From positions 62,001 to 126,000 of the forward strand of contig NW_020847100.1 in the NCBI RefSeq assembly GCF_003704095.1: 64,000 nucleotides of DNA, read 5' to 3'. Below, piece after piece: positions 5,542-49,112 of this stretch (position 1 is its first letter; the number at the start of each line of letters is the position of its first letter). Below the pieces are notes generated by a model. It ran no database searches. It was not told where the DNA came from and saw nothing but the letters and a program-made list of their open reading frames with translations. The translations under genes were made by a program, and so were the position numbers. This stretch comes from Pocillopora damicornis. Its lineage: Eukaryota.

Positions 5542-8500
5542 TTAAGAACACCATCCGCAGCTGTATTTGCAGTATTGTCTCATAATACCCATAGCACTTC
5601 GGCTTTTGCAAAGTCCTTCTCTAGCTAAGTTATGGCAATCTGCCACCTCATCTAAGCACATGCGTCCTGAAAATGATCATAAACACATAACTGAATCAAC
5701 GATCTGAAACAAAATATAGAAATTTTCGCCTGAAGAAGACCAGCAGTATGCAGTCGAAACGTCGCGATCTACGATTACGAAACGATTATGTTTCTTTTTT
5801 GAAGTAGAAATTTTCAAACGAGTGTCAAAAGTAACCCGGTAAAGCTTGGTGGTTATCCTTCCCTTGATTTTGCTCTATGATTGGTTCAGATAACTCGCGA
5901 AATTTTCTCAACCAATCATATTAAAAACTGAAACTAATCTTAACTTTTTCATTTGCGTCTTCTTGCTTCAAATATTTTTTAGTTCTGTGTGGTTTCGGTT
6001 TGACGTCACTCTGCACTCTTCTCTAACAAGCAGACAGTGACTGTCGTGAGGAGCCGCGCACTTTTTTCGGGGAAGCGCAAGTTACTTACTGGACTATAAC
6101 GTTAATTTTGTTCTTGGTTTACTTACCGTTTTTATATCCCCCTGCCATACAAGACTCCCTACAGTTTTGCAACATAAACTCTTGGTGAAGGTAACAATCA
6201 CCATTCCGCACCCACGATCTGCATCCTCTTGGCATTCTATCACGTGCTGTCTTCTCAACTAAAAATAGTATTCATACATTATTTAGTAAGAGAAACCGAA
6301 GTTGCGTCACTCTAACGCAGGTTCGACTATTCAACTAATAGTCCTATGAAAAGCTGAATCATACATCTATGTTGACTGGTTCCTACTTACGACTAACAGA
6401 CACATAGATGACGTCACCATTAACGATATTTTGTATTTTATCTTCTGAAGTATCAGTGACACACTGAGTGCGCCGCGTGTACCTTTTCTTTGATAGAACA
6501 GGCCATCAGGGTCACCAGCTGACTATTTGTTAAAAGTAATTAATCTCACTTATATTCTGCTGTCTTTCCTTTCTGTGTAACCTCTACCTTGGGACCTTGA
6601 GATTTTTTTTCCAACTAACAGTTGTAACTTTGAAGGCTTATAGCGATGTTACACGAAAAATATCTAGATGACAAAAGTAAAAAAAAAGAAGAGAAAAAGA
6701 AATCCTCCCTTCAAAAAGGATCGGTCCATCACATTTCAGTTTTTTCTCTCTTTCAGTCCTCTTTCAGTCCTCTTTCAGTCCTTTCACGAAGGGGGAACCA
6801 TCGTCGCTAGCAGAGTATAAAGGGGGACGCGCCCGGGAGTATAGAAATATGACTGCAAACTGGAGGGGGGTCATTAGATTACTAAAAGGCCTTGGGGGAG
6901 GGGAGAATCAGATCAGGTAAATTTCATTGTGACACAATCAAAATCCTCAGACCCNNNNNNNNNNNNNNNNNNNNNNNNNNNNNNNNNNNNNNNNNNNNNN
7001 NNNNNNNNNNNNNNNNNNNNNNNNNNNNNNNNNNNNNNNNNNNNNNNNNNNNNNNNNNNNNNNNNNNNNNNNNNNNNNNNNNNNNNNNNNNNNNNNNNNN
7101 NNNNNNNNNNNNNNNNNNNNNNNNNNNNNNNNNNNNNNNNNNNNNNNNNNNNNNNNNNNNNNNNNNNNNNNNNNNNNNNNNNNNNNNNNNNNNNNNNNNN
7201 NNNNNNNNNNNNNNNNNNNNNNNNNNNNNNNNNNNNNNNNNNNNNNNNNNNNNNNNNNNNNNNNNNNNNNNGAATAGCGCTGAGCCCAAAAAATTAGGTC
7301 TCTGTAGAGCTGTTGGTATTAAGAAAAGGCTTAAAAAGTATTCCACGATCGCATTAGGCTTGCTCTTAAACGCCTCCGTTTTCGTCCAGAGAACATGCGC
7401 AGTCCTCGCTACCAGTCAGATGCAAAACTAAAAACCAATCGCAGCTGGGTCACCTGCCTTTCCCGTTAGCCATTGTGATAGAGCAGGAGATTATAATTTC
7501 ATGTAGTTTATCAATGAAAACCCATTGTAGAAACAGGTAAACTACCAAAACCACGGGAAACACGGGTAACCAAGCCACGATTTACACTCGTTTTGACTCT
7601 CACTGCTTGAGAGGATGATGCGAGTTTTCAGGACCAATTGGAATCAAAGTAAGGCAAAAAATGATCCCGGATAACTTTCGCCACTGGATTGATAAATCCT
7701 CTATTTACCTGCGGAAGTTTTTTTTCGATTTTCGGATACTGTTAATAAGTTGATAGGGGATGCCCTTGCAAGTTCAGATTAAAGGCACAATTTTTCAAGG
7801 CTTTCTTCAAACTCATGATTAAATTAACAAGTTGACGCACCATGACACAAAAGTGTAAATCCAATTGAGTTTCATTTTCAGTGGGACAGCAGATTATATA
7901 AACTCAATCTGGTCCCCAATGCCGATTCCCATATAGAGTTGTTGTGGTTAAGTTTCGAAAAACCGAAAGCAATATAGTCACAGCCGTCAATCGGAGCGAA
8001 GGTCGACATCATCGTTAGCCAATGAAAATTCAAAGTTGAAATTTCATGAAGCGCGGAACAATGTAAGTGATAAAATCACGATTGGTTTTGGTTTTGAATC
8101 TGATTGGTTGAGAAGGTGGCGTGAGTTTTCGGGACCAATCATGAAGCGAAATTAAGCAAAACCAAAGGAAGGAGAGCCCCTGAGAAAGCCCCTACAGCCT
8201 CGTACTTACCTAACTTCATAGGCGCACACTTGTGGCAACTCCATGGACACATTTCGTGCATTTCTTCAGGATCCTTTTGACATAATCCTTGCTTTGCCCA
8301 TTGTCGACAATCATCATTTAGATCGTCACACTCTCCCCAATGAAAAAATTTCTCGTTCACTTCTCTTATATCACGATATACTAAAAGATTAATTTTATAT
8401 ATCTATCATTTAGGGTATGGGTAAAGTTAAAGATAATTGCAATTCATTTCTCGATAAAATGCGTCTTATTTTTCAAAACTTACATTTAGGAAAACAGTAG

Positions 8501-10493
8501 CCCCATCTCTTGTCCTTGTTGTAGTCAGTTGTTGTCGCACACCATGTTTTTTTATTAAAGCGTAGACAGTTATACACGAGTCTGTTTTTAAAGAAAAACG
8601 GAAATTTACAAGGTTTTCCTCGCCCATTTCCTCCATGGGTGCACAAGCCGCAAGATCGTGGGCACTTTTTACACATGTACGGGGCATTGACTACACATTC
8701 GCCATCCATCGCCCAAGTTCCGCAACGACTGTGAAGGTCAATGCAATCGGTTACGTCCTTGTCTGTCTGACAGTGACCCCACTTCTTATCTCTGTCGTAG
8801 TTGTTGGTTGTTGCGCACCAAGGCAGGTTATGTTTGCAGTCCTTGTAGGTGCATGATGTGTAGTTCTTACCGTCGTAGTAAAATGGAAAAACGCAAGGGG
8901 CGTTGTGGTCGTTTCCTGATAATGTGTAGACTGGAAAAAGCGAGAAAAATAGTGTTATTTGGTACAGATTTGTTATCTTTTGAAGCAGCTGAATACTTTC
9001 CAATGTCTCGTTTGCAAGGAATAAAGAAAGTCTCACAAACGAGGAAAATGGTTCACAATGCCAAAGTCTATCCCACTTTGACTGACGTAGTGTTACTAGA
9101 AATCTTTAATTTCTTCTCCCCGGATTAAATGCTGAGCTCTTCAGTACTTTCTCAAGTTTTCCCGAGTTTTGCACCTTCCCAATCTTGACTCAAAAAGGAT
9201 GAGTAAATTGTTTTGCTCAAGAACAGCCCGACAACCCTGACTAGTGTTCAAACCCGAACATTTTGATGCGAAGTTTAGCGCACCAACAACTGGTTTCTAA
9301 CGTTTACCCTCAATTGTAACTTGGAAGCGGGTAGCCCCTCCTTTCTGGATAAACCAACTTTGGGTTAAAACTGTAGACTTACTCCGCATCCCTTCCAAAA
9401 TTACAAACCAGACTTTAAAATGATCGAGCGCTTTCAAAGAGCTAATCAGAACATGCCTAAATGTCACACTGAGCTGATCAGAACTCAGAGTAAACTACCT
9501 TAAGCGCAGTGCAGCTACCTTAAGCGCAGTGAAGCTACCTTAAGCGCAGTGCAGCTACCTTAAGCGCAGGAGTTACCTGCTGGTTTCCATTTGATTGGCT
9601 GAAAGTTTGGCGCAAGTAATTGAGGACAATCGTAAAAGCCAATGAAGCGAGACTAAAACAACCCTTGAACATCTTCGACATTCAATTAAAAACTTCTTAC
9701 ACCTTTCACAAGACTGAGTCAAATAATATGATAATGATATGATGATGTTATGTGATATTTAATATTTAATTAATCTGATCTTACCTACGCTTGTCCGACC
9801 TTCTTGATAAAGAACTGAGCCGGAAGTATCGTGACGAGACACTCGGTGTTCACTTGAACGATGCACTACATCATGTACGGATTTCAAAGACATAATTATA
9901 TGATTCAGAATGCAGGAACTTGAAAAAGTGTCCAACAATTGTCGTAACTGCTTGAAAAGTGGCGAACCATTTATGGAGTACTGAATAAATGGGGCAAGTT
10001 TCTAAAGAAACTGTGGTGCTACGTCGGTAGAAAAGTATATCAGGGTAATTTGGTATTATTAACTGAGTTGATAACGTAAATTGGCCACCGTAAAGAGTTT
10101 CAAAGCGGACGTTTCGAGCGTTAGCCCTCCGCCAGGGCGAAAGACGAAGGGCTAACGCTCGGAACATCCGCTTTGGAACTTTTAACAGTGGCCAACTTAC
10201 GTTAATCAACTTAGTTGATAGTGCCAAACTACCTCACTAATGGAATGTTTTGACAAGAAGATAGAAAAATATGAGACTCAGTGCTACCACTCGCACTATC
10301 TTTGTGAATCCTACTGCTGTCAAATGTATTTGCGAATATGACCTCGGGATAATTTGTCTAACGACTGATCGTTACAAGAAGGGAAAGTTATTACAATAAT
10401 TTTAAATTTTAGCATCTCACCTTTCGCCCTCGTTTCGACAACACTGAAGAAAAATCCCCATAACAGCAACACAGGATTGAAAAGGAAGAACAT
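5542..10493 (-). CDS. Secreted fibronectin type II plus ShK domain protein (SP-FN2-ShK-FN2-ShK-ShK[4Cys]-ShK), about 342 aa
   Basis: Exons on minus strand: 10493-10421 (MFFLFNPVLLLWGFFFSVVETRAK signal peptide), 9865-9785 (least certain), 8930-8484 (two FN2 motifs PCVFPFYY...WCATTNNYDRDKKWGHC and PCKFPFFF...WCATTTDYNKDKRWGYC flanking a ShK domain), 8380-8210 (ShK), 6258-6127 (4-Cys ShK-like), 5666-5542 (ShK, TAA). All introns are GT-AG phase 1. The gap at 6955-7271 could hide further exons. Confidence 0.85.
5717..5771 (+). ncRNA. Minimal hammerhead-ribozyme-like motif (Penelope-like element remnant)
   Basis: tcgc-CTGAAGA-a-GAC(12 nt loop)GTC-GAAA-CG-TC-gcga: core boxes present, stem II GAC/GTC, stem I tcgc/gcga, palindromic ACGT stem III. 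Confidence 0.5.
6955..7271. other. Assembly gap (N run)
   Basis: N run. Other gaps: 12612-12711, 34471-34480, 43954-44093, 55976-56075, 57307-57406, 61060-61159. Confidence 0.99.
7965..8165 (+). repeat. Copy of an interspersed repeat family (gccaat...gaagcgcgg...gattggttttgg...tgattggttgaga...gaccaatca)
   Basis: Related copies seen at about 5820-5990, 7540-7700, 9420-9700, 13840-13950 (reverse) and 14075-14430 (two tandem copies). Confidence 0.6.
9494..9569 (+). repeat. 20-bp minisatellite, 4 copies (ctaccttaagcgcagtg[c/a]ag)
   Basis: Directly visible tandem array inside a repeat copy in an intron of the FN2/ShK gene. Confidence 0.9.
10041..10233. mobile_element. Palindromic (head-to-head) Penelope-like terminal-repeat remnant
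   Basis: About 90-bp imperfect inverted arms; each arm carries a degenerate ctgacgaagggctaacgctcgaaacgtc hammerhead-like motif; homologous to 43460-43648. Confidence 0.6.
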
Positions 10494-10678
10494 GTTGAGT
10501 GTCTTTATGTGGATACAGAAGAGTGAGAGCAATATTTCTGTGAGCAAAGGTTTATTCCCTCGATCAGTATGCAGAACAATCTATCTGAAGGATATTTAAG
10601 CATCTTTAAATTGAACTTATGATATTTTGCTAAAGAAATAGATAAATATATATCGAAGGAAATATGTGGGAAAGGGAA

Positions 10679-19985: not shown

Positions 19986-21751
19986 GCATGGCAATTGGAC
20001 AGAATTGCAATTTACATGTAGACCCTGCAATTTGATATGAATCTACAGAGAAATTAGGAACTGAACTTGTTTAAAGTTACAGACGTTAATGTAACTTTTA
20101 TCAATCTCAAAATCCCTTCACTCGGGCGAAAGAACTCTTGGCTGGATGAAACTTTTGAAAGTATGTTTTAGCTTCCAGTCCACAGGAAGAATTATTCATG
20201 GGAAAGTGAATTATAATATAGCTAATTTAGCTATAATAAAATTATAATTTTTGGTTTTAGCTATAATTTAAGGTAACTCTGAAGAAAATTGTCTCTAGTG
20301 CCCAAGACCACAGAAATGGGCCCATGAACTGCAAGTAATTTCAACGATATCGATTAGCCAATGAACCAGTTAACACTTTCACTACGATTAAACATTTTTG
20401 CCAATTAATGACAAGCTCATTAAAAACTTAGGCAAGTATCAATCTTCCCTCCCAGTTATAGTCATAATCATCGGCCAAATCTTCACCACAAGAACTGCGA
20501 CCAATTAATAGTTGTAAATTCAAGACTTTCATAAGGAGTGATGGAAAGTGGATAGAGCCTAACTTGGCAATTTCTGCAGGGGGGATGACCTGCAATGGAG
20601 CCACTAATCCCAGTGTTTCTACGACTTGTCTCAACAGGTTATAATTTACTCTGCCGACAGCTGAAAAAACTCAATTCGTCAGTAGTTGCAAACTCAAACC
20701 TAGAATACGGATGTGGAAATAAAAGAAAATGCGACCAACTTTGCCGCATTCTTTTTTTGTTGCTAGCTTCGCATAGGAATAACCTTTGATTTAACCATAA
20801 TTTCCTGTATTTCTACGACTTGTTTCAACAGGTTACAATTCACGTTACCGAGGGCTAAAAAACCGGTGGTTTAGGTCGCAAGCAATAAAAAATTAAGCAA
20901 AATTTCCTTGAGACGTCAATTGTTATGAAAACTTGAGTAGGATGTCCGAAACGATTCAATTAACCTATAAACAATATAAGGTGAGAACAGTTTAACTAGT
21001 TGACCTGCAAGAAATGTGCTTACATCTGTTGAAAAGCCGTTAACAAAGGCTGAAAAGCTACTTCAATGATTAGTCTAACAGCCTTTGTCTTCAAGAACGC
21101 CAGTTGAAACAGATGTCTTCTTAATTCAATCAAGGTAAGAAATTGATGCTTTTAGATAAACTAAAACAAAATTTAACTAACCAAAACCTGGAATGGAACG
21201 GAAGAAGCCTACTTGAAGGCTTAGAGTTCTGGATGAAATTCTCTCATCGGTCTGCGCTCACCTGAATCGCTCCATCGTGTCGTGAGATAGCAGCGACGCA
21301 TAATTATAAAGTGGTTTTATGATGATCTACTTATTAAAGGTCAAAAGTTAAACTGCAAGCTTAAAATTTGTAGATTTGGGGAACAGTTAACTTCAACATC
21401 AAATTATCGCTTGAGTAAGCACTCAATATTAAATATTGTAACGGCGTTATCGAAGCATAACCGCTTCTTTGAGTTTTTGTCTAATAAATTAGCTCTTGAT
21501 TGGTTGGTGTTTACAACAGACGATTACGTTGAAAGTGAATTTATCGTCGGGATTTATGACACATGAGATCTTCGGATGCAGGGCTTCTAGTCCGCCTGGA
21601 ATGATGTTAGACTGATAGAACTGCTGTGTCGCTAGAATGAGAAATTTGCGGTCACCAGATCATCCTGATCGCATGAGATACTCCTTGTACTTCTCGTAGT
21701 AGTGAGTTAAGCAAATCGGTAAATTATACTTCTAACAATTTTAACAGGGCA

Positions 21752-29300: not shown

Positions 29301-30639
29301 GAAGACTCGAGCATAAGTTGTTGCAAGAGTCAAGTGTAAAGTTTGAGAAAGTGAAATGTTGAATGTCCAGTTCGCACAACTTGGCGCTTATTTGAAACTC
29401 TCAGTTACTGAGTTTCACCTAAAATAAAAGAAATATAAAGTAAAGAAGAGCAAGCAAAGTCATCTTCTGAAAAAATATTGGAACTGTCACAGAAAATTTG
29501 GTTTTGAGTAATTACCCCCCAGAAGGTCGATGACGTTTGCATAAGATCATTGATCTACTGAAGGGTCCAAAGTGACACCTAAAATTCACAACAAGCAAAA
29601 GGCCTTTAGAACAAAAAGCTGTGGGTGTATTCAAGGTGAGATGATATCTTTAATACGAAGAATATACACGATATCACGGATGGTACCGTTACTTTGTTCT
29701 CTTGCAATCATTTCTCGGCCATTTCGACAAAATTAAGTGAATGACATAACCTTCCTAAGATGCTATATAGGAGTCAATTGCTTGCTTTGATTCTATTAAG
29801 TCCAAATTAGGAAACTCTGACCTCATTATAGTAATAATCATGTGAAACTTAAAAGAAAAAGTAAATGTTCCGGAGATCTATTACTCTTTCAAATGTTCAA
29901 TTGTGAACATAAAAGTGTTTCAAATTCAAATTGTGGCACTACCTGTCAAACCTAATAGACGGTGGCGGATTGGATTCATGTACTAGATTTTCAAAAACAT
30001 TCAAAATTTCAAATTATTTTGAAATGCTTTGGTCCAAAGAGGGGTTACAGAGAATAAAAAGGAATTCCATCCCGTAGAAATTATATGATGATCCAAGTTC
30101 ATTTTGTCTGGTTCCGAATCAATTTCATGATTAAAATGGTGCACTTCTGAAAATCAAGCAAGATTCTAAATGTGCGTTGTTTCCTCTTAAAAAAAAAAAC
30201 TAAACTAAATTTCCACAAGCAAGTTTGTTTTGTGTCGTATGTTTTTTATAGAAAATTGCTTGTTGTATCCACAAACAAAAAAAAAACCTGCCAGCAACTG
30301 TAAATTCTCAAAGCTAAGTAACTGTACAAGACTGCTCTGAAATTTCCACGGGAAAGTGTCCTCAGTAAGTCATCTGTACTCGCTAGTTTCGCCGACGCCA
30401 GGATTGTTCACGACAACTCTCCTTTTGCAAAAACTGTATGTTAATAATTTAAATCGCCAAAGATAAATTTTCTGCTGATTATCGCAAATGCTTGGAGTTT
30501 TCACTCTTCTTGTCCAAGTGGAGTCTAGAGTTTGGAGGAGTTATTAGCTTGCAATTGTTAAATTAACTAACTTACTAACTAAACTGACTAAATACTTCAT
30601 AAGCAACTGCTGTTCTTTCTTTATAGAAGGCAAGTGGCA

Positions 30640-33221
30640 ATGAAATCAACGGTGGTTTTTGTTTTGTTGACGATATTCGGCTCCTTGTGTCAAGGAAAGC
30701 CTGTTGAAAAAAAGAAGGCTGCGAAATTGAAGGATAAGCCACAAAAAGGTATGAAAATACCAAGTCCTGAAACGTGATTGTTGTGTAAGGCTGACCTAAT
30801 TTTGTGCTACATCAAGATGACACGCTTTGGTTGTTAAGTCTGTATTTGAGGTTGCTTGACGCGTACATGCAAGAGTTTGCAGTAGGGTATGGTTATGAGA
30901 AGTTCAAGTCTTTGATTTGTTTTGGTTTCTTTTTGCTTTTGTTCTTCAGACAGCGTGTGTTTTGACAAGGATGTGAGATTCTGCAAAAAATGGGCGCCCC
31001 TGGGTTACTGTGCGAAAAGCCATTCTGTCATGTCAGGGAAATGCAAGTTAGCCTGCAAAATGTGTTCTCCAGGTACGAAGAAGCAAATAAAAATTGGTTT
31101 GTTCTTGCAGTACACTCATTCGTCCATTTATTTCCTCATTCATAGATTGCCTTAAACTGCTTGGGCGCTTTTCAGTATAATTAATGTAGTTATCAATCTT
31201 GGTGATTAAGCGTACTATCATAATCGGTCGTAGGTTCAATAATTCTTTATTATCCATCTACATCAGTAATCTTTTAAATGCGTTTAATATGCTCAGCTCA
31301 CTCGTGTATACATTGTTTGCGATATCGAAAAAAGCAAATATTTTCCGAAACTAAAGCATGTAACAAACGATCGAAGAACACGGAAAGGGATCAGAATTAT
31401 TTCTCAAATTTTTTCTCAGCCTCGAGGTCTGACTAATCATTTTTTTCTTAGTCTTTCACTGCTACGTTCATGAAGTAATCCTTGGACATTTTACATATTG
31501 TAGGGGAAATGCTAATGGATGACGACAGCAGATGCAGCAACTGGAAGAGTTCTGATTTTTGCGCCAAAGCAAATCATCAGCCTTATATGTTTAAACACTG
31601 CAAGTTTAGTTGCAAAGGGTTTGTTGCTTTACCATCCGTCCCTGAGAAGAAACTTGGTGACACCTTTGGAATGGGTGGACGATACGGACAACAGCCAATG
31701 GCTGGAAGGTTTGGTCAACAGCCGTATGGAAGACCACCATATGGTGCACAACCAAACATGCAACAACAATATGGTCAGTATGGGCAGCAACCCTACGGAC
31801 AACAGCCTTATGGTCAGCAACCCTACGCTCAACAGCCTTATGGGCAGCAACCCTACGCTCAACAGCCCTATGGGCAGCAACCTTACGGACAACAACCCCA
31901 ATATGGACAACCATCATTTGGTCAGCAGCCATCGTATGGCCAACAAGGAATGATGCAACAGCCTTGTGGTCAACCTCAAATGACTACGGATCCTTGTGCT
32001 CCTCCTTGTCCACCTCAGCCACCTTGCGGTCAGCCACCGTGCCCACCACCACAACCACAACCCCCATGTGGAGGTCCACAGGCGCCTCTGCCTCCCCAGC
32101 CACCAGCTCTTCCACCACCACCACCAACGGAAGAAAAAGAGGGAAAAGAGGAGGAAAAAGAAGAAAAGGGAGAGAAAGAAGGATCGCTGAAGCGGCCACC
32201 TGCCGTTGACGCCCGCCGTCCTCCACCTAGGCAGCCATACCGACCTTACCAGCCTTATGGAGCTCAAACTCCTTACGGCCGCCCACCATATGGACAGCAG
32301 CCACCCTATGGACAGCAACCACCCTATGGACAGCAACCGCCCTATGGACAGTCGGCATATGGACAGGCTGGCTACCAACAACCCTACAATCCATACGGTT
32401 CAGATCCCTATGCCCAGCAACCATCTCCTTACCAGCAACCTTCTTACCAGCAACAACAATATTATGGACAAAATAGGCAACCTCAAGCGCCAGTCCAGCA
32501 AGTTCCTCAGCCAGCACAACCTGCACCTGTTGCTCAGCCTGTCGCACCTGCTGCTCAGCCCGCAGCACCTGTTGCTCAGCCTGCCGCCCCTGCTGCTCAG
32601 CCTGCCGCTCCTGTTGCTCAGCCCGCTGCACCCGGTAGGTTAAAGTGTCTTTGCCCTGCCACACAATCACGTCCCTTCAACCTTCCACCTGCGTCTATAT
32701 GTCTGATCATCTGTTTCCCCGCTCCTTGTACCATTTTTCTATCTTCGTTTACCCCTTCCCTCTTTTGCACCTTTCCTACGTCCATAGAGCTAACCAACCA
32801 AACTCTCCAACTTCCTATACCCTTTCTGCCTTCCTTAGAAGCACCCAGCCTTCCTTCCTTCATTTAGACTCTAAAGGACTCAAATTCTGATACTATTCTA
32901 AAGTTCCTTGTTTATCATCGAAGGGTTTTCAGTCATATTCTTGCATGCAGTTTCATTTAAGATAGCTTTAAAGTACCTTACACTCATCAACATCTCTCTT
33001 TCTAAAACTCCTTAGTCGGTCCGGCGGCTGGACCCGCTGGTCCCGCGGCCCCTGAACCACAATCTGATTTCGCGCAACCGGGAGGTCAAACGTATGTCAT
33101 TCAACATCCTTGGCCAGGAACAGAAGGTCCACTCACTATCAAGAAGGAAGGTGTAGAGCAAAAGAAAGTAGAGCCGAAAAAAGATCTAAAGCTGGCTGCT
33201 GATGAAGTAGTAGTGGCATAA
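30640..33221 (+). CDS. Secreted ShK-array protein B: SP-ShK-ShK[4Cys], YGQQP repeats, Cys/Pro block, Glu/Lys block, YGQQPP, AQPAAP repeats; about 522 aa
   Basis: Exons 30640-30748 ([21 protein letters not shown] signal peptide), 30950-31072, 31504-32634, 33016-33221 (TAA). GT-AG phase-1 introns; 1569 nt in frame. Confidence 0.88.
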
Positions 33222-35572
33222 GTTTTTAGACTTTTTAAGGTAAATAGTCCGCTTTATCGCGAACCTCGAGTTTTCCGCCGCAATTTTTTAATATGTGAAA
33301 TGCGGTCGTATTCAAATGCATTTGGTCTTTATTAAAATTACCTTTTCGTTTATAAGACCTTATAACCTTGAGGGAAGCTTTATAAAGGAATTCATGATTT
33401 TCATTTGAAATTACCTAATATTTAGACTCGAAAGATGGATTTTGATCTCTTTAGAGAGTTATTTTTATCAAATATGCCTCGTAAGTGTTATCTATTGCAG
33501 TCCTCGAATAAGTGTCTGGAGTTATCTGGAATTCTTTGGTTTTGCTTCATTTTTCACTTTGGTGAACTCCTTCTGCATTTTGAACTTATCAAAAAGACAA
33601 CTTAAAAACTTGGAAACTTGCCTTTTTTTTTTGCGTCCGTGGTAAGACATTCTCCTGTATTCATTAAGTGTGTGAAGCTTAGCTTTTTAGATCGATCGCT
33701 TCAAATTATTTTTAGACACGTTTTCATGAGACTCAGTTGAAGTATTTTTGTTTATTTTCAGGCGAAACACCAACGAATGACTCAGTTATGAGTTGCTAAT
33801 CGTTTATGACGCTGTACGCAAAAGTGTTGCGACTTCTCTTTGCATCTGATGAAGAAAGAGCTCGATTATGGCATGCGTATTAAGTTATTACACTTGAATA
33901 CACAGGAGCCTCAATGAATGATCGGCTGCATCATGCTATATTCCTATCAGTCATTTTTATTTCTCCTAAATGGCAAGACGAATGGTCTTTTGATTCAAAG
34001 ACTACTTTTATCTTTTAAAAAATAAATCACCAAGACTGAAGAATTTTTTTTATTTTTGTTATGTGCGTTCAACAACCAACAAAACTGGAGTTCAGTGACA
34101 TTCTTGCACATTTAGTTAAATCTTATGTTTCCACTGTCTCGCTCAAAAAAATTCACCAGACGTATTTGTCAATTCAGACGTTGGCTTTTTTTGTTTTTAA
34201 ACTCGCAAAATAGAATCTAAGCATAAATTAAAATAAAGTTAATTTCTTCCTTGAGTTCTTCATTGATTAATGCATCGGAATCTAAATTCTCCACATCGGC
34301 TTGAAGTACGCTTTCCTTTTCCACCCACTCTGCGTCGCTCACCAGGGCTTTAAGCCATTGTTACGTTACACGATAGCGGATATGGCACTGAATTCCCCCA
34401 TCCTTCAACTCCAAACCTGGGTTATTCGGTGAACTAATTTGCATTGATGGTACTCATTCGTACTCATGATNNNNNNNNNNGTGTTGATCAAGAACAACGC
34501 AATATGTCGTCTAGGGCTCAAGTCCAGACCCCATCGATCAAGAGTCAAAAGACAGCTGCACGTCTCCGTCATCAGTATGAATTTCCTTGGGAAAGGGAAA
34601 GACTTTGATATTTATTATGTGACTGAATTATGCTTTGGAGGAATATCCGAATAAGTTGAACCACCAGTTTTTTCCAACGAGGTACCTGTCGACATGGAAA
34701 AAAAACGATCGCAAAGATTTTCTTCATTCAGTTGAAGATGTTGAAACTTTTAACCGTGGTAATCGTTTTCTGGTAAGAGTCCTATACTTTATATTACTCA
34801 GGTTTTAAATCAAAGTGTCGAGGGAACAAGACAGGATAATGGCCTTAATTCAGCTCTTTTCTTATGTTTCGTCTTTCACGATAAACGATTTGAAAACATG
34901 GCGTGTTCTTAGTTGCTGGCTTTCATAGAATCTAAACATTTTCTTTAAAAAATGAATATAAACAAGAAAGAAAAATAATTTGTCATGAATAGCAGGAGTT
35001 CTTAAAACCCAGAAAAACACAGCCTAGATTTTGGAATAAATATAAAGTAAAATTGGCTTACTGTGTTTTTATAATAAGAAACTTAGAGAGGTTTTCAACT
35101 CATTGCTTGTAAGAGGCTAGCACTTCACCACGGTTCCACCAAACAAATGTTTACGAGGATTCTATTTCAAAACGATAAATTCTTTCACACTGCAGTTTTG
35201 TGATAGGTAGCACCTGTCAAATCTATCCACGCAAGGCTGACCGCTTTCATTGATTCGTTCAATTCGACGTGGATTTGTGTTCTACAAATTATGAAGTAAA
35301 AACTAGCTATAGACGGTAAGTTTTCTCTTTCTAAATAAACTAACGGGCTTCCAGCGACAGAAAGTTTCTCCTAATACGTGTTTTTCTTAAATTTATTAGG
35401 AACAATTTTCAAATTTTATTTCATGACTGATAAAAAAATTGTATATATATAAAATTGATCGATGAGAATTCAATTTACATAGACTCAACTATGGAAATAA
35501 AATAGAACGTAAGCTTTTTTCTATACAAACCTTTTTATTTAATTCTTCAGATACCACGAAACTTATGACGGG

Positions 35573-38500
35573 ATGGTTGAATGCGGACAAAAGACTCAAA
35601 ATGCTGTCTTCTCTATCATTTTATATGTCATTGTCTCAGGTACAGTGTAAGCAACAGTCTTGTGGTAGACCCACTTGTAAATAAACTAATGTGTTCCGGC
35701 GAGGAGATTAACCAACTGCTTATTCAAATTACAAACTGCCTTCTTTCTTACCTTTTCACTGCTGAGAACAGAATGTTATGGCAGATTACAATTTTGTCTC
35801 TTTTTAATTTTTCAGTTATTAATCAGCAAGATTGTCTCAGCTACGCAATCTCAACAATTTAAAACTATACGGTTTATTTAATGAGGTACTGAATTGATGG
35901 GAAAACACTCACATGGATGTTGTAACATTTGGACGTGCATCAAATAGAAGACTAGTTTCCCAAGCAGTTTCATTTACATTAGCGTTAGTACATTGCGTGT
36001 TATATTCAAAGCTAGCATATTTCGTGTTTGTTTGGTTGTTTCAGTATTTTATCTTTGTACGAAAGAAGCCGTGCAAGGTGCCCCGATAGCATTAGATGTC
36101 TCTCAAGGTAAGACATATTCAAAACCCAGTAATTTAGCTTAATTGCGTCATAAGGCTCTCGTCGTTAACTACACTCACAACCTTTCTTCGTGAATGGATG
36201 CTCATCTTTGAATTTCTCAGTATCTGTGGGTTTGATCGAAAGCAGACTCTGATGATCATTTGGGAGTTCTATCATTAACGTTGTTGTTGCTTTTGTTTTT
36301 TTGTTTTGTTTTGCTTTTTAACAATGGCCTATCTCGAACTCTCTAACTGTACTGTTTTCTACGATTAAAAAATACGCTCTATCACATAATTGTATCAGAA
36401 AAGGGGAAAGATAGATGACAATATCGTGTTGCTAAGTAAATGCGACCTAAAGACACTTTCTATTCATTGTACTCTTGATGAATGATTGACATTTTTACTA
36501 AATCAATCATATATATATATGCATCGTTATATATGCATCGTTACATGGGGTAGTCACGTCAAAACTTCTTTTCCATTTTATTGACCCTGTAGTTCGTATC
36601 AATCCACTGGAGTGTTATGATAGGGTCAAATCGTGCTCAAAAGAAGCTAAAAATGGATTCTGCGCGTCCAACTATCATTACATGATTGACAGATGTCCAT
36701 GGAGCTGCCGGTTCTGCAGAAAAGCTGGAGGTAATAAATCGATCATATTATTAAACGATAAGGCACTAGATTTTTTAAGTGACCAGCACTGGACCGGACA
36801 TGATACATTTTATAAGATATTCTTCCCTTGCGATGCTGACGTCAACGTAGTAGACAGAGAAGGAGCGTAATTTCAGGAGGCGATGTGGCTGAGTGATTTT
36901 TGTGCGCTGTTTCACTTGGAAAGTGGCAACAGTCAAACGTTTTTTACATCTACCTTCTCAATTAGATCTTTATCTCGGTGCCCCTATTCAACTCTTGAAT
37001 CGAGATCAAATATTTTTTTCTTCTACCTGCTCAAATAGATCTGCTTCTCGGTTGCACCCTTGTCAATTCTTCTGCAGCGGCCGTGTAAAGAAAACCAGTT
37101 GAACGTCATATCCAACTGGTTTACTGGGATTTACAACAATTTAGGTTTCGTTTGCTCCAATTGGATTTGTTTCTCCTTAGTCCCCGCTAAATTCCTCGGC
37201 TACATATTTCAAAGGCCAACTGGCTTCCTTCCTTCCACTGAATTAAAAATTAGAGGAATGATACGTTTGATTTAAGTGGGGTGCGTATGAACAACCTGGA
37301 CTTATGTAGCTATGTACACCTCTGCGGCGAGATGAAATATAAACTATTTAAAAAAAAGGGGAGTAAAAATTACCAAGTCTACGCTTTCTAACCATGTAAG
37401 GGCCAAACGGTTAAATTTTTGAGGGGTTAATCCCTGTATGGAAGGGCGACTCAAGCTGGAAAACCTTTCTATCGTCTCCTTGGATGATGCATATGATTGG
37501 TTGTTTAATCGTCAATGATTCGGCAATATTCTTGAACGTGTTAATAACTTGGAAGATTTGCTGAATTCATGTTAGGAGATACTGACAAATGTGAAGATAT
37601 CGATCAGCACTGTCCAGAATGGGTGTCAAACAATGAATGCGCGACGCGACCAGACTACATGGCTCAGAACTGCAAAAAGAGCTGCGAGATGTGTGGTCCA
37701 GGTGAGTTGCTTTTGACAATCCAAAGGTGTTTCTTTAATATCGTGATCCTAGCGGGCTCCTTGCAAAATGATAATAAATCGGTGAATAATTTTTTTTCGC
37801 AAAGAAAATCATAGAACATTCTTTTCAGAATAGCAATAAGAACCATGTTTTCTATCTGCTAAAAAACTATAAAACTGGCGTCTGGGAACGCTTTCCAGGA
37901 GTATGACTGATTGTACTGTATTTCATTCATAACAAGAAGAAGGTTTCTTCATTTAATATGTTCAAACTGTTTGTATTTTGGGGAATACGGATTAGGAGTG
38001 TAGCACCAAGAAACATTCTTCGCCCTATGAAGTATTGGATGGCTTTCTAGATCTCTTACGCTTGGATATGGAATGTTAGGCCATTAGTATGTATTAATGT
38101 TTGCGAAGGTTGTCCGCTAGTTTGCATTTCTATTGATGAAGGAATATGATTTAAGCAACTTTCTCAGAAGAATTAAAAACGGAACTACAGCCAAATCTAA
38201 GCCTTACCCTGATTCGTTCGTGGTCTATAGCATAATTTATCTTATCCCTAGTAGTTTTTGCGATTTCAAATTAAACGGCTCAATCGTTTTTAATTCTTGT
38301 TTCTATAGAAAGCGAGTACAAAGTGAGTGACTCGGAACCCAGTTGTCCAATCTGGGCCAAAGCTGGTTGGTGCCAGAAAAATTCAGACCTGCTTAAAAAA
38401 TGTCCGCACAGTTGTCAAAAGTTCGGTTATATGGGTGCAAATTCCATGGAAGAACGCTACATAACAGTCAACTTTCAGAATACTTCACAAGTAACAGCCA

Positions 38501-40311
38501 CAAATGTCACTGATTTTGCTGCACCGCCGCCGCCATCTGCTGCTATTCGTCCTCATTCAGAACTGGAATCGGTAAGACTTGGATATAGACAGAGTTAGTC
38601 ATAAGAAAAAGTGCATGAAGTTTTCCTCATCAAAAAAATGAATTGGCATTTCAGGCCTTTTAGTTCATTATTGCTGAGCTTGTCTGAGTTTCCAAGGAAT
38701 GAAGCGTCTAGTAGTACGGTACTATATTGCCATTCGTCCTTGACCCCTTGAGAACAAACCCATGCATAGTTCTTTAAGATTTTCTGACAGTTTGCTAGTT
38801 TTTATCGACAGTCTTGGGTGGAGAAAGACTTCGCCTCGCTCATGGACGCATCATTTAGCTTCACCAAAAAAAAAACACTTTAAGATTGTAAATTTTGCAA
38901 TTTCGAGTGAAATCTCGATTTGCATGTGAAGGTAATTTTAATCTACAGTTTAATTCTAATTTATGTTTTATTTTCCCGACTCAGCTTCCTGCCGACCTGA
39001 AGTCGGTTCTCGAAAAGGAATGGTGGAACTCAAAACTGTTACAACTGACTCAAAAGCAAAATGAGTATGTGACTCACCCAGAGCTACGCCAACCTTCTTT
39101 TCCACTGTACACGAACAGCTCTGCTCAGTCAGGTAACAACACTCTATTAGGAAGAAAACAGATCAACGGATCCCAAGTGCTAACAAACTCGACAAGTTCA
39201 CAAGGGTTCATTAATCAGTCATCAATATTGCAAGGTACGTATACAATATTGTCTCTACGGTTTTCAATTATATACCTCTCTTCCGTTTCTTCAACTGAAC
39301 GCCAGCTAAACCAGTTCCTTAGCGAGGCAATTTTGCAGGTTAGAATTTACTGTCGGTTGCTTGTTATGCGTAGAGAAAGGAAACCATTGCATAATCCGAT
39401 AAAATCTAATTAGCTTTGTGATATACGCGTTAATGATATTGCGAGCCTTTAAGTGAGATTTGCCCTTAATTATCTCCCCTTACACCTTCTCGATAAAAAT
39501 ATAACGATAATCAAGAAATCACAGCAAAACCCTCAGTTGTATCATTTTTACAGGTGGAAATAAACAAGAACAGTTGAACGAACCTCCTGCCCCTGCTCCT
39601 CCTCCTCGACCGTACGACTCTCTTCTTCCACAACTAGCCGTCAGTGGTCTGACATGGAATGGTAAACGAAAAAAGGCGGAAGAAAATCAGGCTGACGGAC
39701 AAACAGCTCAGGAGACTGAATCAAGTCAAGACGTAATATGGAAAGAAGAAAAAGAGGAAGACGAGGATTTAGAAGCCGAAAATGGTCAACAAAAAGAAGA
39801 GGTTCCTGTGATAGTTTCAGGGAATGATGAAATTTCAAGTGGCCACGAACCGAGGGATGAAATGCTTCCGTTAGGTAATAAAGAAGTAAAGCACGCGAAA
39901 ACACACGAGAGCCAACTAACAACTTCGGGTGAGAATTTTGAAAACTATCACGAGAATACGGAAGGACACGTAACGTCTTCTTCTGGAAGTGGCGAAGAGA
40001 TGGATTCAGAAGAACAACATGATGTATCGATGTACAACAGTCCCGAAAGTACTCAAGAAGGCGATGTAAAACAGGTCTTTCCAGAAAGTGACATTTCTGG
40101 GAGCGGGCAGCATTCAGCGCAGGAAATTGATGACAATGAGACCAGCTCAGATGGAAGTAGACGGGAGGACAATGTCAAACAAGGCTTTCCCAAAAATAAC
40201 ATCCGTAGTGGCAGTCAGCTTTATAAACAGGAAAGTGGTGACTTTGAATCCAGTTCATCTGGTAGTAACCAGTATGAGGACGATGTAACGTTCTCTGGGA
40301 GTGGAGAGTAG
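35573..40311 (+). CDS. Secreted ShK-array protein C: SP-ShK-ShK-ShK[4Cys], Ser/Thr/Asn linker, acidic Ser-Gly tail; about 554 aa
   Basis: Exons 35573-35639 (start least certain), 36045-36107, 36593-36730, 37576-37701, 38309-38571, 38985-39234, 39554-40311. Intron phases 1,1,1,1,0,1 are consistent; 1665 nt. Confidence 0.8.
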
Positions 40312-44107: not shown

Positions 44108-44110
<3 letters not shown>

Positions 44111-44143: not shown

Positions 44144-44147
<4 letters not shown>

Positions 44148-44659
44148 CAAAAGCTTTCTTTGCCTCTTAGAGAGAAAATTTTCAACATGAGGACATCTGA
44201 AGGAGTGGCTCACTAATTATCAAAAGCTAATTAATTATCATGCATCTGTGTCACTATCCGATTCTGATCGCCTGCAAGCAAGAATCCAACTTTGGTTGGC
44301 AGTGTTTTGGTAAAATCACCCCCAAAACAAGCATTTCCGAGCATCCATGATAGAACAAACAAGACAAATGATTGAATTTGGATGGCAAGAACTAATAAGG
44401 CCTTGGTTTATGTTACACGCCTAACCCCATGGCTCAGTTCGAAAGATAAGACGAGCCTCGACCTTGACAATCAATCGTTATCATGCTAAACCCATTCTAA
44501 CCGTTGTTTGATAACATTTGTAAACGAAAGGAACAATCTGTCGAGGTAACAACTCGCAACCCGAAGTTGTAATCATTGTCTGACAGTGACGGATTATTTT
44601 TTCAGGATTTTTGTCAAATAATCTATACTTTGTTTGCAGATAGTGAGCCGAAATAGAAG

Positions 44660-47600
44660 ATGAAGTTCGGTCTTGGTTGGTGCGCATTATTTATTATAGG
44701 CTTTATAGTCGCCTCCTCTGTCCTTGGTAGGTATCAATTTTCTATCCAGCGGCAGTAATAAACTGTCGAAGGAATCGATTCTACCGTCAAAATTTAAAGA
44801 GATCTTTAAACGTCGAAATTTCTTGGAGCAAAACCAAATGGATTGCTTTTTTGATTTCTTTTCACTTTTTTTTTTTATCAAAGTTGCTAATTTGGGTCAG
44901 GGAAGTTTGGCGACTGTTTAAATAGGAGAGGTTTTCCTGAAGTGGGTCAAACTAACTCTTCCGTTGAAGGAAAAGGCTATGATAACACATTGGACTTTGC
45001 TGCACGTTTCGACAATGCCCTTCACCGTTTCAGATTGTACAGTAATGGTACAAATTTGGGAAGAGGTGCCGAAAAACTTTTTCATGAGGTAATGGCATGA
45101 TTGAAACATGACTTAACTAACTGGGATGACAAAGATTTCCCTGTGACACTCAAAAGTCTTTAGAAACCTTTGTTTTGGTCATGCAATCAAAGATCTTCCT
45201 TACAATAATTTTCTAGCTAAAGAGAATTGCAAAATGTAGAATTCATCCCGAAGTGGAAAAAAGCGGAAACTATGTCAATTTGTAAATATTTGTAAATAAA
45301 TATCACACACTCTTCTAGGAACCGAGGAACAAAAGGGTGTATTTACTTCCGCTGATGAGCCAGGTTCTGGATCTGGAAGTGATTCCGGAAGCGGAGATGC
45401 ACTTAATGAGAGAGATGAGGAGGGGCAGAAAATTCTTGACTTGATGTCTACGATTCCTTACAAAGAAGGTAAATGAAATACAGTTAGCTCAATTTTTCCT
45501 TGAAAAATAGGGGCTGGGTCTTACTACACTCTTACTTTGCCTGTAGGGAACTATAAGGCTAATCTTCAAAACAGAAATTTCCGCGAACGTCACGTCTATT
45601 TTGGAAAAAAATAAACAGGGAAAGAAATCAATTGCCTATACCACGGAAAAAGTAAAACTTAAAAGCCTAGTATCTTGATTGTGCCATAATAAACAATCAT
45701 CCACCGAAGTGGAGGCAAATATCCATCAATTTTACTGACCCTGAGGTGAATAATTTCTATAGTATATACCACATAGAAACCCCCAAAATACTTATTTAAT
45801 TAGCGTCAATGTACCGAAAAGTTGTCGGAAAGTGAACTCTTGACGCTCGATTTCGTCTTCGACTGCTCGGAGATGAAAAGTACTTGCTGATCGAGTCTTA
45901 CCTAGCCAATCAACATGAGGTAAATGCATTATTTACCTGTGTGTCATATATACTATTAAAGGATATACTGCTCTCAGAAAAAAACGTAAACATTGATAAT
46001 CACTGACTAAGTTAACTAGTATACGTGTCAGAAACACGGATTGCAACATAAAAATAACTGGACAGAAATAAAGGAATATGCAAATAGCTGATAGAAATAA
46101 CAATAGAAAAAATAACAAAAATCTCTAAATAAACAAAGCCATAACTTCAGTCAGATATCCGCTATAGATGGATTGAATCAAAAAAAAAAAAACCCTTAAT
46201 GACTACCAGTGATATCTGGGCTATACAACCGTGCTAACAGCTTAGGTTTTTTTGCTGTTTTTGTTGTTCGTAGCTTATAACATAAAAAAATGTGAAGATA
46301 ACCCAGAAGTTGACTGTAAAGGCAAGACTTCTACGGAATGTCTAAAAGATTTTCATGATATGGTGCGAGATTGCCCATTATCTTGTCACCTGTGCGCAAA
46401 AAGAGGAGGTACGTGATTTGAATTGCATTTCTGTGCCATTACTCGCGGTTGATCATTCCAAACCATTTTAACCATGGGGGTAGAAGAGAAGTAATCCAAG
46501 TCTGAGTAAGGAACTGTCGTCGAGTTATTCAAGGGCCGACCTTTGTTTATGACAAGATTAGTATATTTTGCCACTCTGTGAGAAGCAGTGTTGGTAAAAT
46601 TGAATGAGCAGATGAATTTCGCAATGAATCAGTAAAACAGGGCTATGGAAAAAGCCATGAATAGACGAGTATTTGAAAAAAGAACTTCACTTACTATCTT
46701 TGTTGTTTTTTGCCTGGTATATTTTAATCAATTAAGAAAAACAATAACTTCTTCATTTTTTTAATAATACTTTGTTAGGAGCCACTGAGAAATGCGAGGA
46801 TCTTGATGAAAATTGTGACGTAGGGGTCCGCAGACGCAAATGTCAGCTACTTCCTGATTACATGATGCAAATATGTAAACTTAGAAAAACAATAACTTCT
46901 TCATTTTTTAAAAAATACTTTGTTATATTTTAATCAATCAAGAAAAAACAATAACGTCTTCATTTTTTTTAATAATACTTTGTTAGGAACCACTGAGAAA
47001 TGCGAGGATCTTGGTGAAAATTGTGACGTAGGGGTCCGCAGACGCGAATGTCAGCTACTTCCTGATTACATGATGCAAAACTGTAAACTTTCCTGCCAAT
47101 TCTGCGGCCCAGGTAGGAAAATCTGGCACCCATGATAAAAAAAACCAAGGAAGTGATAAAGTATGGTAAATCACTCTTCGACTCCATTTTCGTGAGGCTG
47201 AATTTCAAATACTACAGGCAATATTCTATTCCACAGCGCAGGAAGTAGTTTTTTTGGGTAGCGATTTGTTATCTATCCCATACGTTTGACATTGCCTTTG
47301 TAATGCGACTATACTTCTACTCTTAAGGTGGGAGTTCAATTAAGCTTTTGTATATTGATTGGGATTATTAGCTCAAATGAAAAGTCACAGGCTTGTATAA
47401 TTCCATGTTTGATTTAAAGTTATAATGAGCTTTTTTTAGAACCTCGAAGGAGAGAAACTGAAGAAAGATATACGTCAAATACCTTTTAAAAACCAGGAAA
47501 TAAGAAGCTTAAAACCTGTTTAACCTTCTTCCTTTCAGAGTCTGGGTTTGGAAAAATGGACAAACATCCCGTTTGCCCAATATGGGGAGAATATGGCTAC

Positions 47601-49112
47601 TGTCAAACAGACTCTGACATAAGGAGAGAATGTCCTCATAGTTGCACGAAGTACCATGGAGTCAGGCCAGCCCCCGAACCATATCCCTACCCCGTAAAGG
47701 CTCTGCATCCCTATCAATTCCAGCCTGGACAATATCCGATTCCTTCTGGGTACCCATATCCCGCGCGATACCCGAGCCCATATCCTTCTCCTTACCCGTA
47801 CCCGTATCCCTATCCATCTCCGTACCCCTCTCCCTATCCCTATCCATCTCCGTACCCCTCTCCTTACCCCCACCCTAACCCATATCCAACTCCTCATCCG
47901 ACACCAGCACCACAGGTAGGGTATTTTTTTTCGATGTGCTCAGGTCATCTTGTTCAAGTTAATTTGTTTTTTCAGGATTTTTAACTTTAAACCTGTTGTA
48001 ATAGGAGAATTTTGTAGTAAATTTTGTAGCGTAGCGGAGGGACATGGCACGCAAACAATAAACACCAGTAGGAGGGCAGAACTAAAACAATAAATTCCGA
48101 CGACATATTAAAAACCAGCCAATAAATTAGAGTACGAAATGATGAAATCTCAACTGGTTGACTGTAAGTTGTTGACTAAGTTACAAAAGAAGTAAAGACC
48201 GCAGCACTCTAAGGGCATTACTTGTAAATTTATATAGGCAAACTGTAACAGATTTTCCAAGAAGCCCCTTGAGTGATCTATTTCTGGGTTGCCTCGTTTC
48301 CAGTTTAAGGCATTCTAATGGGCTAAATCGTGTCAGATGAACTTTAAAAATCTCAGGCCGACATTTGAATCCAATCCTTTTTCTTTTTTCTCTGTTTATT
48401 TAAATTCCTCGCCTGCCCATGGTGGCATTTATCATCTGCATTTAAAAATGCCAATTGTTAATTAAACGAGCCAGCAACATGATTGAATCCTATAAGGACA
48501 GTTCATTTTGAATGTGTTTGAACGTATCTAAACGTATGCAATGTTCAGTTCAGTGAAATCAGCCTTGAAGTCGATAGCCACCTTAACTTTGAGGAACTCT
48601 TTCCTCCATCGTGCAGTAAGGATAGTTAATCTGGATTTTTGTTGCAGCCGAGTCCAGTACCCACACCAGTGCCCTCCCCAGAACCTTCTCCAGTGCCCGC
48701 TCCATCTCCTTCTCCAGAGCCCTCTCCATCACCAGCCCCGGCCCCTTATCCAACACCAAGTCCGGCCCCTAATCCAACACCAGCACCAGCTCCGGCCCCT
48801 TATCCAGCACCAGCACCGGTTCCGGCCCCTTATCCAGCACCAGCACCAGCACCGGCCCCTTATCCAGCACCAGCACCAGCACCAGCACCAGCACCGGCTC
48901 CTTATCCAGCACCAGCACCGGCCCCGTATCCAGCTCCAGCAGCGGCCCCTTATCCAGCACCAGCTCCTGCACCGTATCCAGCGGCGGTTCCCCCTGCAGC
49001 ACCTGCAACTTACGACAAAGGTCACAAGTCAGAGAAAAGCGAACAAAAGAAGCACAAGGACCATAAGAGGAAAAATCATGACTCGAAGAAACGCAAAGGA
49101 AGAAGAAATTGA
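44660..49112 (+). CDS. Secreted ShK-array protein D: SP, acidic GSGSGS linker, ShK-ShK-ShK[4Cys], Tyr-Pro/Ser-Pro and PAPAPY repeats, Lys/His/Arg tail; about 439-488 aa
   Basis: Exons 44660-44726 (MKFGLGWCALFIIGFIVASSVLG), candidate 44901-45047, 45319-45468, 46274-46408, 46987-47112, 47539-47915, 48648-49112. Phases are consistent. Exon pattern and motifs (KCED...CGP; CPIW...CPHSC) match protein C. Confidence 0.85.
46779..46882 (+). pseudogene. Truncated duplicate of ShK exon 46987-47112 (pseudo-exon)
   Basis: Near-identical acceptor and ATEKCEDLDENCDVGVRRRKCQLLPDYMMQICKL, then runs into duplicated intron sequence and an in-frame TAA; lacks the final CxxC and the normal donor. Confidence 0.75.

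What the first reader, a model, noticed from the sequence alone, without database searches (positions are those of the whole stretch)
6127..47660. Recurrent 6-Cys ShK plus 4-Cys ShK-like doublet in which the C1-C6 disulfide is replaced by a hydrophobic/aromatic pair
Seen: six 4-Cys domains (exons at 6127-6258, 23216, 24486, 31504, 38309, 47539), each directly after a canonical ShK ending CxxCxP. All keep the conserved Asp and C2-C5. In the five array copies the C6 position is aromatic (CKEY, CKSY, CKGF, CQKF, CTKY) and the C1 position is V, V, L, V or K. Known: ShK pairs C1-C6, C2-C4 and C3-C5, so exactly one bridge is lost. Inference: a distinct subfamily forming an obligate bi-domain unit that standard ShK profiles may miss. 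I recall reduced-cysteine ShK-like peptides from sea anemones, so novelty needs checking.
Basis: partly seen in the sequence, partly recalled or inferred. Interest (0 to 1): 0.7.

Follow-up and report, generated by a model that had tools for sequence, protein, structure and literature searches.

The report
Coral ShK domains missing one disulfide
Five neighbouring stony-coral genes carry small ShK domains that lack one of the usual three disulfide bridges, a variant already known from snails and common elsewhere, and four of them likely encode secreted mucin-like or proteoglycan-like matrix proteins rather than toxins.

Summary
Six ShK domains lack C1 and C6 but keep the Asp and C2-C5. They lie in five genes (A-D plus strand, E minus strand) of a Pocillopora-type coral, and RNA contigs show splicing in all five. 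Loss of C1+C6 is already described in snail ShKT proteins (PMC6409789). Pfam ShK passes its cut-off for 4 of the 6. Gene E has Ala/Gly at the two sites (C6 site Gly in 17 of 17 homologs). What survives is family-level: genes A-D keep a ShK6-xP-linker-ShK4(Tyr/Phe) pair across stony corals (aromatic in 23 of 24 homolog domains), largely by descent from few ancestors. The genes have signal-like starts and Gln/Pro/Tyr-rich tails, and show no Lys-Tyr dyad. C and D have significant Ser-Gly clusters, so they are likely proteoglycan cores. Neither the fold of the four-Cys domain nor an interface was shown. Low novelty.

The parts
5453..5666 (-). Gene E last exon: six-Cys ShK and stop
   Evidence: Pfam 36.5 bits; RNA joint to the 6127 exon
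6127..6258 (-). Gene E four-Cys ShK exon (C1 site Ala, C6 site Gly)
   Evidence: (24.0 bits, over cut-off)
6955..7271 (.). N gap that probably hides a further six-Cys ShK exon of gene E, the true upstream neighbour of the four-Cys domain
   Evidence: inferred from homologs P0003/P0262/P0264 and RNA contig length
8210..8380 (-). Gene E six-Cys ShK exon ending CHKCAP (boundaries approximate)
8484..8930 (-). Gene E exon: FN2 - six-Cys ShK - FN2
   Evidence: Pfam fn2 twice and ShK; RNA contig
21748..21878 (+). Gene A first coding exon, signal-like hydrophobic start
   Evidence: P0002
22600..22719 (+). Gene A six-Cys ShK (A1 partner), ends CHP
23216..23326 (+). Gene A four-Cys ShK A1; GC donor; the C6-site Tyr comes from the next exon
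   Evidence: no Pfam hit
23768..23887 (+). Gene A six-Cys ShK (A2 partner), ends CTP
24486..25279 (+). Gene A four-Cys ShK A2 (V...CKSY) and Gln/Pro-rich tail
   Evidence: no Pfam hit
25737..26330 (+). Gene A Lys/Glu-rich last exon (start approximate)
   Evidence: (P0002 tail)
30625..30697 (+). Gene B first exon, signal-like start (end approximate)
30950..31072 (+). Gene B six-Cys ShK, ends CSP
31504..32634 (+). Gene B four-Cys ShK (L...CKGF) and Pro/Gln/Gly/Tyr-rich tail
   Evidence: (25.8 bits)
33016..33239 (+). Gene B last coding exon; a further intron follows in the 3' UTR
35487..36107 (+). Gene C first two exons (35487-35639, 36045-36107), signal-like start
   Evidence: homologs
36593..36730 (+). 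Gene C first six-Cys ShK, followed by a dibasic RK (RR in 8 of 8 homologs)
37576..37701 (+). Gene C six-Cys ShK partner, ends CGP
38309..38571 (+). Gene C four-Cys ShK (V...CQKF) and a conserved ERYITVNF motif
   Evidence: (25.1 bits)
38985..40311 (+). Gene C last two exons; acidic tail with 13 Ser-Gly (3 SGSG), candidate glycosaminoglycan sites
44640..45468 (+). Gene D signal-like exon (44640-44726) and acidic SGSG exon (45319-45468)
46274..46408 (+). Gene D first six-Cys ShK, followed by KR
   Evidence: (19.2 bits, under cut-off)
46987..47112 (+). Gene D six-Cys ShK partner, ends CGP
47539..47915 (+). Gene D four-Cys ShK (K...CTKY) and Pro/Tyr repeat
   Evidence: (23.1 bits)
48648..49112 (+). 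Gene D Pro/Ala/Tyr repeat and basic tail, stop

Best explanation
Genes A-D are a conserved stony-coral cluster of likely secreted matrix or mucus glycoproteins, in which a six-cysteine ShK domain is followed by a ShK domain that has lost its outer C1-C6 cysteines and then by a long low-complexity tail. The outer bridge is the one that ShK domains lose readily. The two inner bridges (C2-C4, C3-C5) are inferred to hold the core, and a Tyr/Phe three residues after C5 likely caps it. The pattern repeats mainly because a two-exon unit was duplicated (A1/A2, C/D, possibly B), not because each copy found the same solution. Gene E (FN2-ShK protein) appears to have lost the bridge separately, with Ala/Gly. 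The ShK heads would act as binding or assembly modules, as is proposed for nematode ShK mucins. The tails would be glycosylated: C and D probably carry glycosaminoglycan chains on Ser-Gly sites. Shown: sequence, splicing, conservation, Ser-Gly enrichment. Inferred: secretion, fold, glycosylation and role.
For: Splicing of the six-Cys to the four-Cys exon in RNA contigs for B, C and D. Hydrophobic N-termini and no later hydrophobic segment in 5 of 5 full-length homologs tested, plus hydrophobic first exons of B and D. Tails 28% Q (A), 25% P/22% Q (B), 43% P/22% Y (D). Ser-Gly: 13 in the gene C last exon against a shuffle mean of 3.0 (0 of 5000 reach it), 12-16 in 6 of 6 homolog tails (0 of 5000 each), and 4 in gene D exon 2 (23 of 5000). 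No K[YF] between C3 and C4 in 15 of 15 domains tested. Pair conserved in 4 of 4 full-length gene A homologs and 8 of 8 gene C homologs. Pro at C6+2 in 5 of 5 partners against 2 of 94 other genome domains. A1/A2 and C/D are nearest neighbours among 109 domains. A profile of the six four-Cys domains finds the MMP23 ShK domain 2k72 at E=4.5e-4. Four-Cys ShK is common and mostly non-aromatic elsewhere and is in print (PMC6409789). ShK plus mucin architecture is known in Toxocara and C. elegans (PMC3611597, PMC2563036).
Against: No localisation, glycan or proteomic data. Signal peptides were judged by hydropathy only. The fold of the four-Cys domain was not confirmed: the isolated gene C model had pLDDT 47.7, and in the gene A model only the six-Cys domain 79-114 matched solved ShK folds. 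The tree is unresolved beyond A1/A2, so one origin for A-D is neither shown nor excluded. Dibasic sites after the first ShK of C and D would also fit a peptide precursor, and a jellyfish ShK peptide blocks Kv channels without the KY dyad (PMC11122761).
Confidence: 0.6

Rival explanations
1. Within genes A-D the six-Cys and four-Cys domains form one rigid unit. The four-Cys domain needs its neighbour to fold, and the Tyr/Phe sits in the interface or packs on the C1-site residue.
For: Pair, xP linker of 8-10 residues to the Asp, and aromatic kept in 4 of 4 full-length A and 8 of 8 C homologs across Pocillopora, Montipora, Acropora, Porites and Desmophyllum. Aromatic at the C6 site in 23 of 24 parsed A2/B/C/D homolog domains against 7 of 83 elsewhere. 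Four-Cys segments scored pLDDT about 63-78 inside the four-domain gene A model but 46-61 in the isolated gene C model; these are different domains with different alignments.
Against: Conservation among orthologs also follows from common descent. Four-Cys domains stand first or in all-four-Cys runs in many proteins, so the class needs no partner. The C1 site is Lys in window gene D, Tyr in its 2 homologs, and gene D homolog P0183 has Gln at the C6 site.
Confidence: 0.2
2. The genes are precursors of ShK-type toxins or antimicrobial peptides, cut at basic sites, with the tails as propeptides.
For: RK/RR follows the first ShK of gene C in the window and in 8 of 8 homologs, and KR follows that of gene D. 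Coral antimicrobial peptides carry ShK domains (PMC12496222). NEP3 has a cleavage signal between its first and second ShKT domains (PMC5832418).
Against: No dibasic site separates the six-Cys and four-Cys domains or follows the four-Cys domain in the linkers listed. No K[YF] in 15 of 15 domains. Tails are 200-400 residues with conserved Ser-Gly clusters, which suits a matrix protein better than a propeptide.
Confidence: 0.15
3. The four-Cys domains are decaying copies without function.
For: The two gene A copies fall below Pfam detection.
Against: C2-C5 are kept in homologs from several coral families, and the gene C domain is 56-98% identical over its exon in 12 homologs. Exactly the paired cysteines are lost together.
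Confidence: 0.05

Closest known systems
Cumia reticulata multiShKL 2-4 and CreM12-ShK 1 and 7 (PMC6409789; passages read)
   Same: ShKT domains lacking Cys1 and Cys6; in multiShKL it is the second domain of a secreted multi-ShK protein with a proline-rich low-complexity region.
   Different: Snail salivary proteins; the passages read do not say which residues replace the cysteines; the low-complexity part lies before the ShK domains, not after them.
Toxocara canis MUC-1 to MUC-5 and C. elegans PHAT proteins (PMC3611597, PMC2563036; passages read)
   Same: Signal peptide, tandem ShK domains and a low-complexity, probably glycosylated region; surface or lumen coat role.
   Different: Nematode tails are Ser/Thr-rich and the motifs are described as six-cysteine. 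The coral tails are Gln/Pro/Tyr-rich or acidic Ser-Gly-rich, and the last ShK has four cysteines.
Pfam ShK PF01549; solved ShK-type domains MMP23 (2k72) and the Brugia peptide (2mcr)
   Same: Conserved Asp, C2-C5 spacing, profile match; the six-Cys domain of gene A superposes at 1.0-1.6 A.
   Different: No C1-C6 pair; no Lys-Tyr dyad.
Four-Cys ShK arrays in non-orthologous proteins, e.g. the Chrysotila carterae 2OG-Fe(II) oxygenase P0111
   Same: Same loss of C1 and C6 with the Asp kept.
   Different: Runs of four-Cys domains without a six-Cys partner; mostly non-aromatic at the C6 site.
Nematostella NEP3 family and coral ShK antimicrobial peptides (PMC5832418, PMC12496222; passages read)
   Same: Secreted cnidarian multi-ShK precursors.
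   Different: Processed to active peptides; the passages read describe no long Gln/Pro/Tyr or Ser-Gly tail. No activity is shown for the genes here.

Membership tests
ShK/ShKT domain (PF01549) | Profile score over the curated cut-off (20.9 bits) | tested here: met
   4 of 6 four-Cys domains pass (23.1-25.8 bits); the two gene A copies give no hit
ShK/ShKT domain (PF01549) | Conserved Asp and C2-C5 with CxxxC spacing | tested here: met
   invariant in 6 of 6
ShK/ShKT domain (PF01549) | Six cysteines with a C1-C6 bridge | tested here: not met
   C1 and C6 are absent in 6 of 6; these are ShKT-like, as in PMC6409789
ShK/ShKT domain (PF01549) | ShK helical fold in the four-Cys domain | tested here: inconclusive
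   three short helices predicted in each four-Cys segment, but low confidence and no structural match for those segments
Type 1 Kv-channel toxins (ShK, BgK) | Lys-Tyr/Phe dyad between C3 and C4 | tested here: not met
   0 of 15 domains; the domain at 8641 was left out of the count and shows none by eye
Type 1 Kv-channel toxins (ShK, BgK) | Release as a free peptide and channel block | not testable with these tools
   dibasic sites only after the first ShK of genes C and D
ShK mucins (Toxocara MUC, C. elegans PHAT) | Signal peptide plus tandem ShK domains | tested here: met
   hydropathy and exon reading; no dedicated signal-peptide predictor was run
ShK mucins (Toxocara MUC, C. elegans PHAT) | Ser/Thr-rich mucin tract | tested here: not met
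   tails are Gln/Pro/Tyr/Ala-rich or Glu/Ser/Gly-rich; works like, but is not a member
Proteoglycan core proteins | Clustered Ser-Gly in acidic context (consensus recalled, from no call) | tested here: met
   genes C and D and 6 of 6 gene C homolog tails exceed shuffles
Proteoglycan core proteins | Attached glycosaminoglycan chains | not testable with these tools
   needs biochemistry
Proposed obligate ShK6-ShK4 doublet subfamily | Four-Cys domain always directly after a six-Cys domain, with an aromatic at the C6 site | tested here: not met
   3 of 83 directly after a six-Cys domain and 7 of 83 aromatic outside the coral orthologs; 0 of 17 aromatic in gene E homologs. Holds only inside genes A-D.
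Proposed obligate ShK6-ShK4 doublet subfamily | Shared interface between the two domains | not tested

The most novel reading that the evidence does not exclude
Genes A-D are an unstudied, stony-coral-wide family of secreted matrix proteins built on a rigid ShK6-ShK4 head in which a Tyr/Phe replaces the outer disulfide. Genes C and D are ShK-headed proteoglycans whose first ShK domain is cut off at a conserved dibasic site as a free peptide.
Probability: 0.15. Interest if true: 0.45.

Novelty: new member of a known kind. Interest (0 to 1): 0.2.

Why it matters
The headline claim adds little, since ShK domains without C1-C6 are known and common. The useful residue is annotation. These genes are labelled 'mediator subunit 15', 'fibronectin', 'tyrosinase-like' or 'uncharacterized' in public records, and ShK hits invite a toxin label. 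They look instead like secreted coral matrix or mucus proteins, two of them candidate proteoglycan cores. If the aromatic does replace the bridge, the family would be a natural example of a two-disulfide ShK scaffold.

Tried and rejected
Structure: the four-domain gene A model (P0002 residues 44-200; 20-row alignment that includes 15 unrelated multi-ShK proteins and so leans to the ShK fold) had pLDDT 73.1 and pTM 0.44. Foldseek gave no match at E<=0.001, and its two ShK rows map to the six-Cys domain only. The isolated gene C four-Cys model (pLDDT 47.7) matched nothing in PDB by either method, which is uninformative. Coordinates are not returned, so the packing of the two substitute residues could not be measured. 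Tree: 31 columns for 109 rows, unresolved apart from A1/A2; both one origin and several stay open. No sea-anemone ortholog appeared among named hits, but these searches are too insensitive to show absence. ESM Atlas returned only generic ShK clusters. Earlier findings of this scan: none by place or by words. Literature: eight searches listed no paper whose title or abstract start names this coral gene family; most listed papers were not opened. Pennington 1999 on ShK disulfide removal is not held, so my memory that the outer bridge is the most dispensable is recalled, not checked. The supplements of the Stylophora cell atlas (PMC8162421) could not be seen and may give the cell type. The four-Cys counts come from a regex parse with some likely mis-parses (e.g. 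P0168). The query profile was built from the window's own four-Cys domains, so it should favour aromatic ones if anything.
Full report
WHAT IS THERE. The window is animal DNA with introns. Its proteins are nearly identical to named Pocillopora coral proteins. Sixteen ShK-type domains are readable: ten with six cysteines and six with four. They belong to five genes. Gene E (minus strand, about 5.4-10.5 kb) is FN2-ShK-FN2-ShK-ShK-ShK4-ShK. Genes A-D (plus strand, about 21-49 kb) are A: ShK6-ShK4-ShK6-ShK4-tail; B: ShK6-ShK4-tail; C and D: ShK6-ShK6-ShK4-tail. RNA contigs show GT-AG joints through B, C and D, including the six-Cys to four-Cys joint, in 2 to 3 of the 4 runs laid. They show joints in A and E too. 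Contigs show presence only, not expression level.

OBSERVATION. Two corrections. The gene E copy has Ala/Gly and follows a different six-Cys domain ending CKQCAK, which is probably hidden in the N gap at 6955-7271. The local density is real: 6 of 16 here against 1 four-Cys among 131 hits in 40 other stretches of the genome, with the caveat that those stretches were mostly chosen by Pfam hits.

DO PROFILES MISS THEM? Mostly not. PF01549 passes its cut-off for the E, B, C and D copies and finds nothing for A1 and A2. None of the six appears in the genome-wide list at E<=0.001, so a strict scan can overlook them.

IS IT AN OBLIGATE DOUBLET? A profile of the six domains was run over 1.84 billion representatives (best 150 of 519 listed). 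After removing orthologs of genes A-E, 124 proteins held 666 parsed cores, 83 of them four-Cys, in 33 proteins. Of these 24 are the first domain, 44 follow another four-Cys domain, 9 follow a five-Cys one, 3 directly follow a six-Cys one and 3 follow one at a distance. Seven are aromatic at the C6 site and 2 have both a hydrophobic C1 site and an aromatic C6 site. Several proteins consist only of four-Cys domains. One cluster is named, a haptophyte 2OG-Fe(II) oxygenase; most are unnamed. Inside the coral family the pattern holds: aromatic in 4 of 4 A2, 1 of 1 B, 17 of 17 C and 1 of 2 D homolog domains, and in 4 of 4 A1. Gene E has Gly in 17 of 17. These homologs are relatives, not independent events.

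ORIGIN. With the C1 and C6 sites excluded, A1 and A2 are each other's nearest neighbours among 109 domains (tree support 100/95), and so are C and D. B and E rank far from the others. The linker still ties A-D together: Pro two residues after C6 in 5 of 5 partners against 2 of 94 other domains, and 8-10 residues to the next Asp. The five aromatic copies thus stand for one to three events, and E likely for another. Orthologs of A, C or E are named in Montipora, Acropora, Porites, Oculina, Orbicella, Stylophora and Desmophyllum. C and E lie on contigs of the same length in four Acropora species and have near-consecutive locus numbers in A. palmata, which suggests an old cluster.

STRUCTURE. Inconclusive. 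Both models place three short helices in the four-Cys segments, the last running past C5 over the aromatic site in A2 and C. Only a six-Cys domain matched solved ShK folds, and the isolated four-Cys model is too weak to search with. By sequence, the four-Cys profile finds the MMP23 ShK domain (E=4.5e-4). The interface could not be tested.

WHAT THE PROTEINS LIKELY DO. All have a hydrophobic start, and the five full-length homologs tested have no later hydrophobic segment, so secretion is inferred. No domain has a K[YF] dyad (0 of 15). The tails are low-complexity. Gene C's acidic tail holds 13 Ser-Gly against 3.0 in shuffles (0 of 5000), as do 6 of 6 homolog tails, and gene D exon 2 holds 4 (23 of 5000; SGSG 2 of 5000). 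Three gene A proteins have no acidic Ser-Gly. Acidic Ser-Gly clusters are the usual glycosaminoglycan attachment signal (recalled knowledge). The best reading is a family of secreted matrix or mucus glycoproteins with ShK heads, working like nematode ShK mucins (PMC3611597, PMC2563036; passages) without being members of that family. A conserved dibasic site after the first ShK of C (8 of 8 homologs) and D keeps a processed-peptide reading alive.

WHAT IS KNOWN. PMC6409789 (passages) reports that the second ShKT domain of snail multiShKL 2-4 and domains of CreM12-ShK 1 and 7 lack Cys1 and Cys6. Passages of PMC11857629, PMC6917819, PMC10985097, PMC12549020 and PMC8162421 added nothing on four-Cys ShK domains or on these genes. 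The eight searches named under Tried and rejected listed no paper on this coral family, which is weak evidence of absence.

VERDICT. A real, conserved feature, but a known kind of variant. The general doublet claim fails, a family-level version remains possible, and the more useful finding is the likely matrix or proteoglycan nature of the host proteins. Interest 0.2.

Noticed in passing
window 39556-40308 and 45319-45468 (+): Acidic Ser-Gly/SGSG clusters far above shuffles and conserved in gene C homologs: candidate proteoglycan core proteins.
   Followed up: partly
window 46718-47090 (+): A 208-bp tandem duplication leaves a truncated copy of gene D's six-Cys exon near 46750; RNA contigs use the copy at 46987.
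   Followed up: partly
window 23326/23327 (+): GC-AG intron in gene A according to the NCBI model P0002.
   Followed up: partly
window 33239-33762 (+): Intron in the 3' UTR of gene B, seen in 3 of 4 runs.
   Followed up: no
window 38430-38480 and 47670-47740 (+): Short motifs conserved after the four-Cys domains (ERYITVNF in gene C; YPxKALHPYQ-like in gene D), no predicted fold.
   Followed up: partly
window 12776-17463 (-): Spliced gene for a G-protein gamma subunit (Pfam G-gamma, E=2e-16).
   Followed up: yes
window 57872-58354 (-) and 63260-63604 (+): F5/8 type C domain exon and a short-chain dehydrogenase exon.
   Followed up: no
L001, L003 (G000:C1936); L015, L016 (G000:C3188): Other ShK variants in this genome: domains with a CC pair at C4 and no C6 at the usual place, so the outer bridge may have moved; also V-x-D domains whose last Cys is shifted or missing.
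   Followed up: no
L005, L006 (G000:C2150): ShK domains with C1 shifted two places upstream, Tyr at the C1 site and C6 shifted one place.
   Followed up: no
L022 (G000:C3765): Two ShK exon copies split between two reading frames, probably broken duplicates.
   Followed up: no
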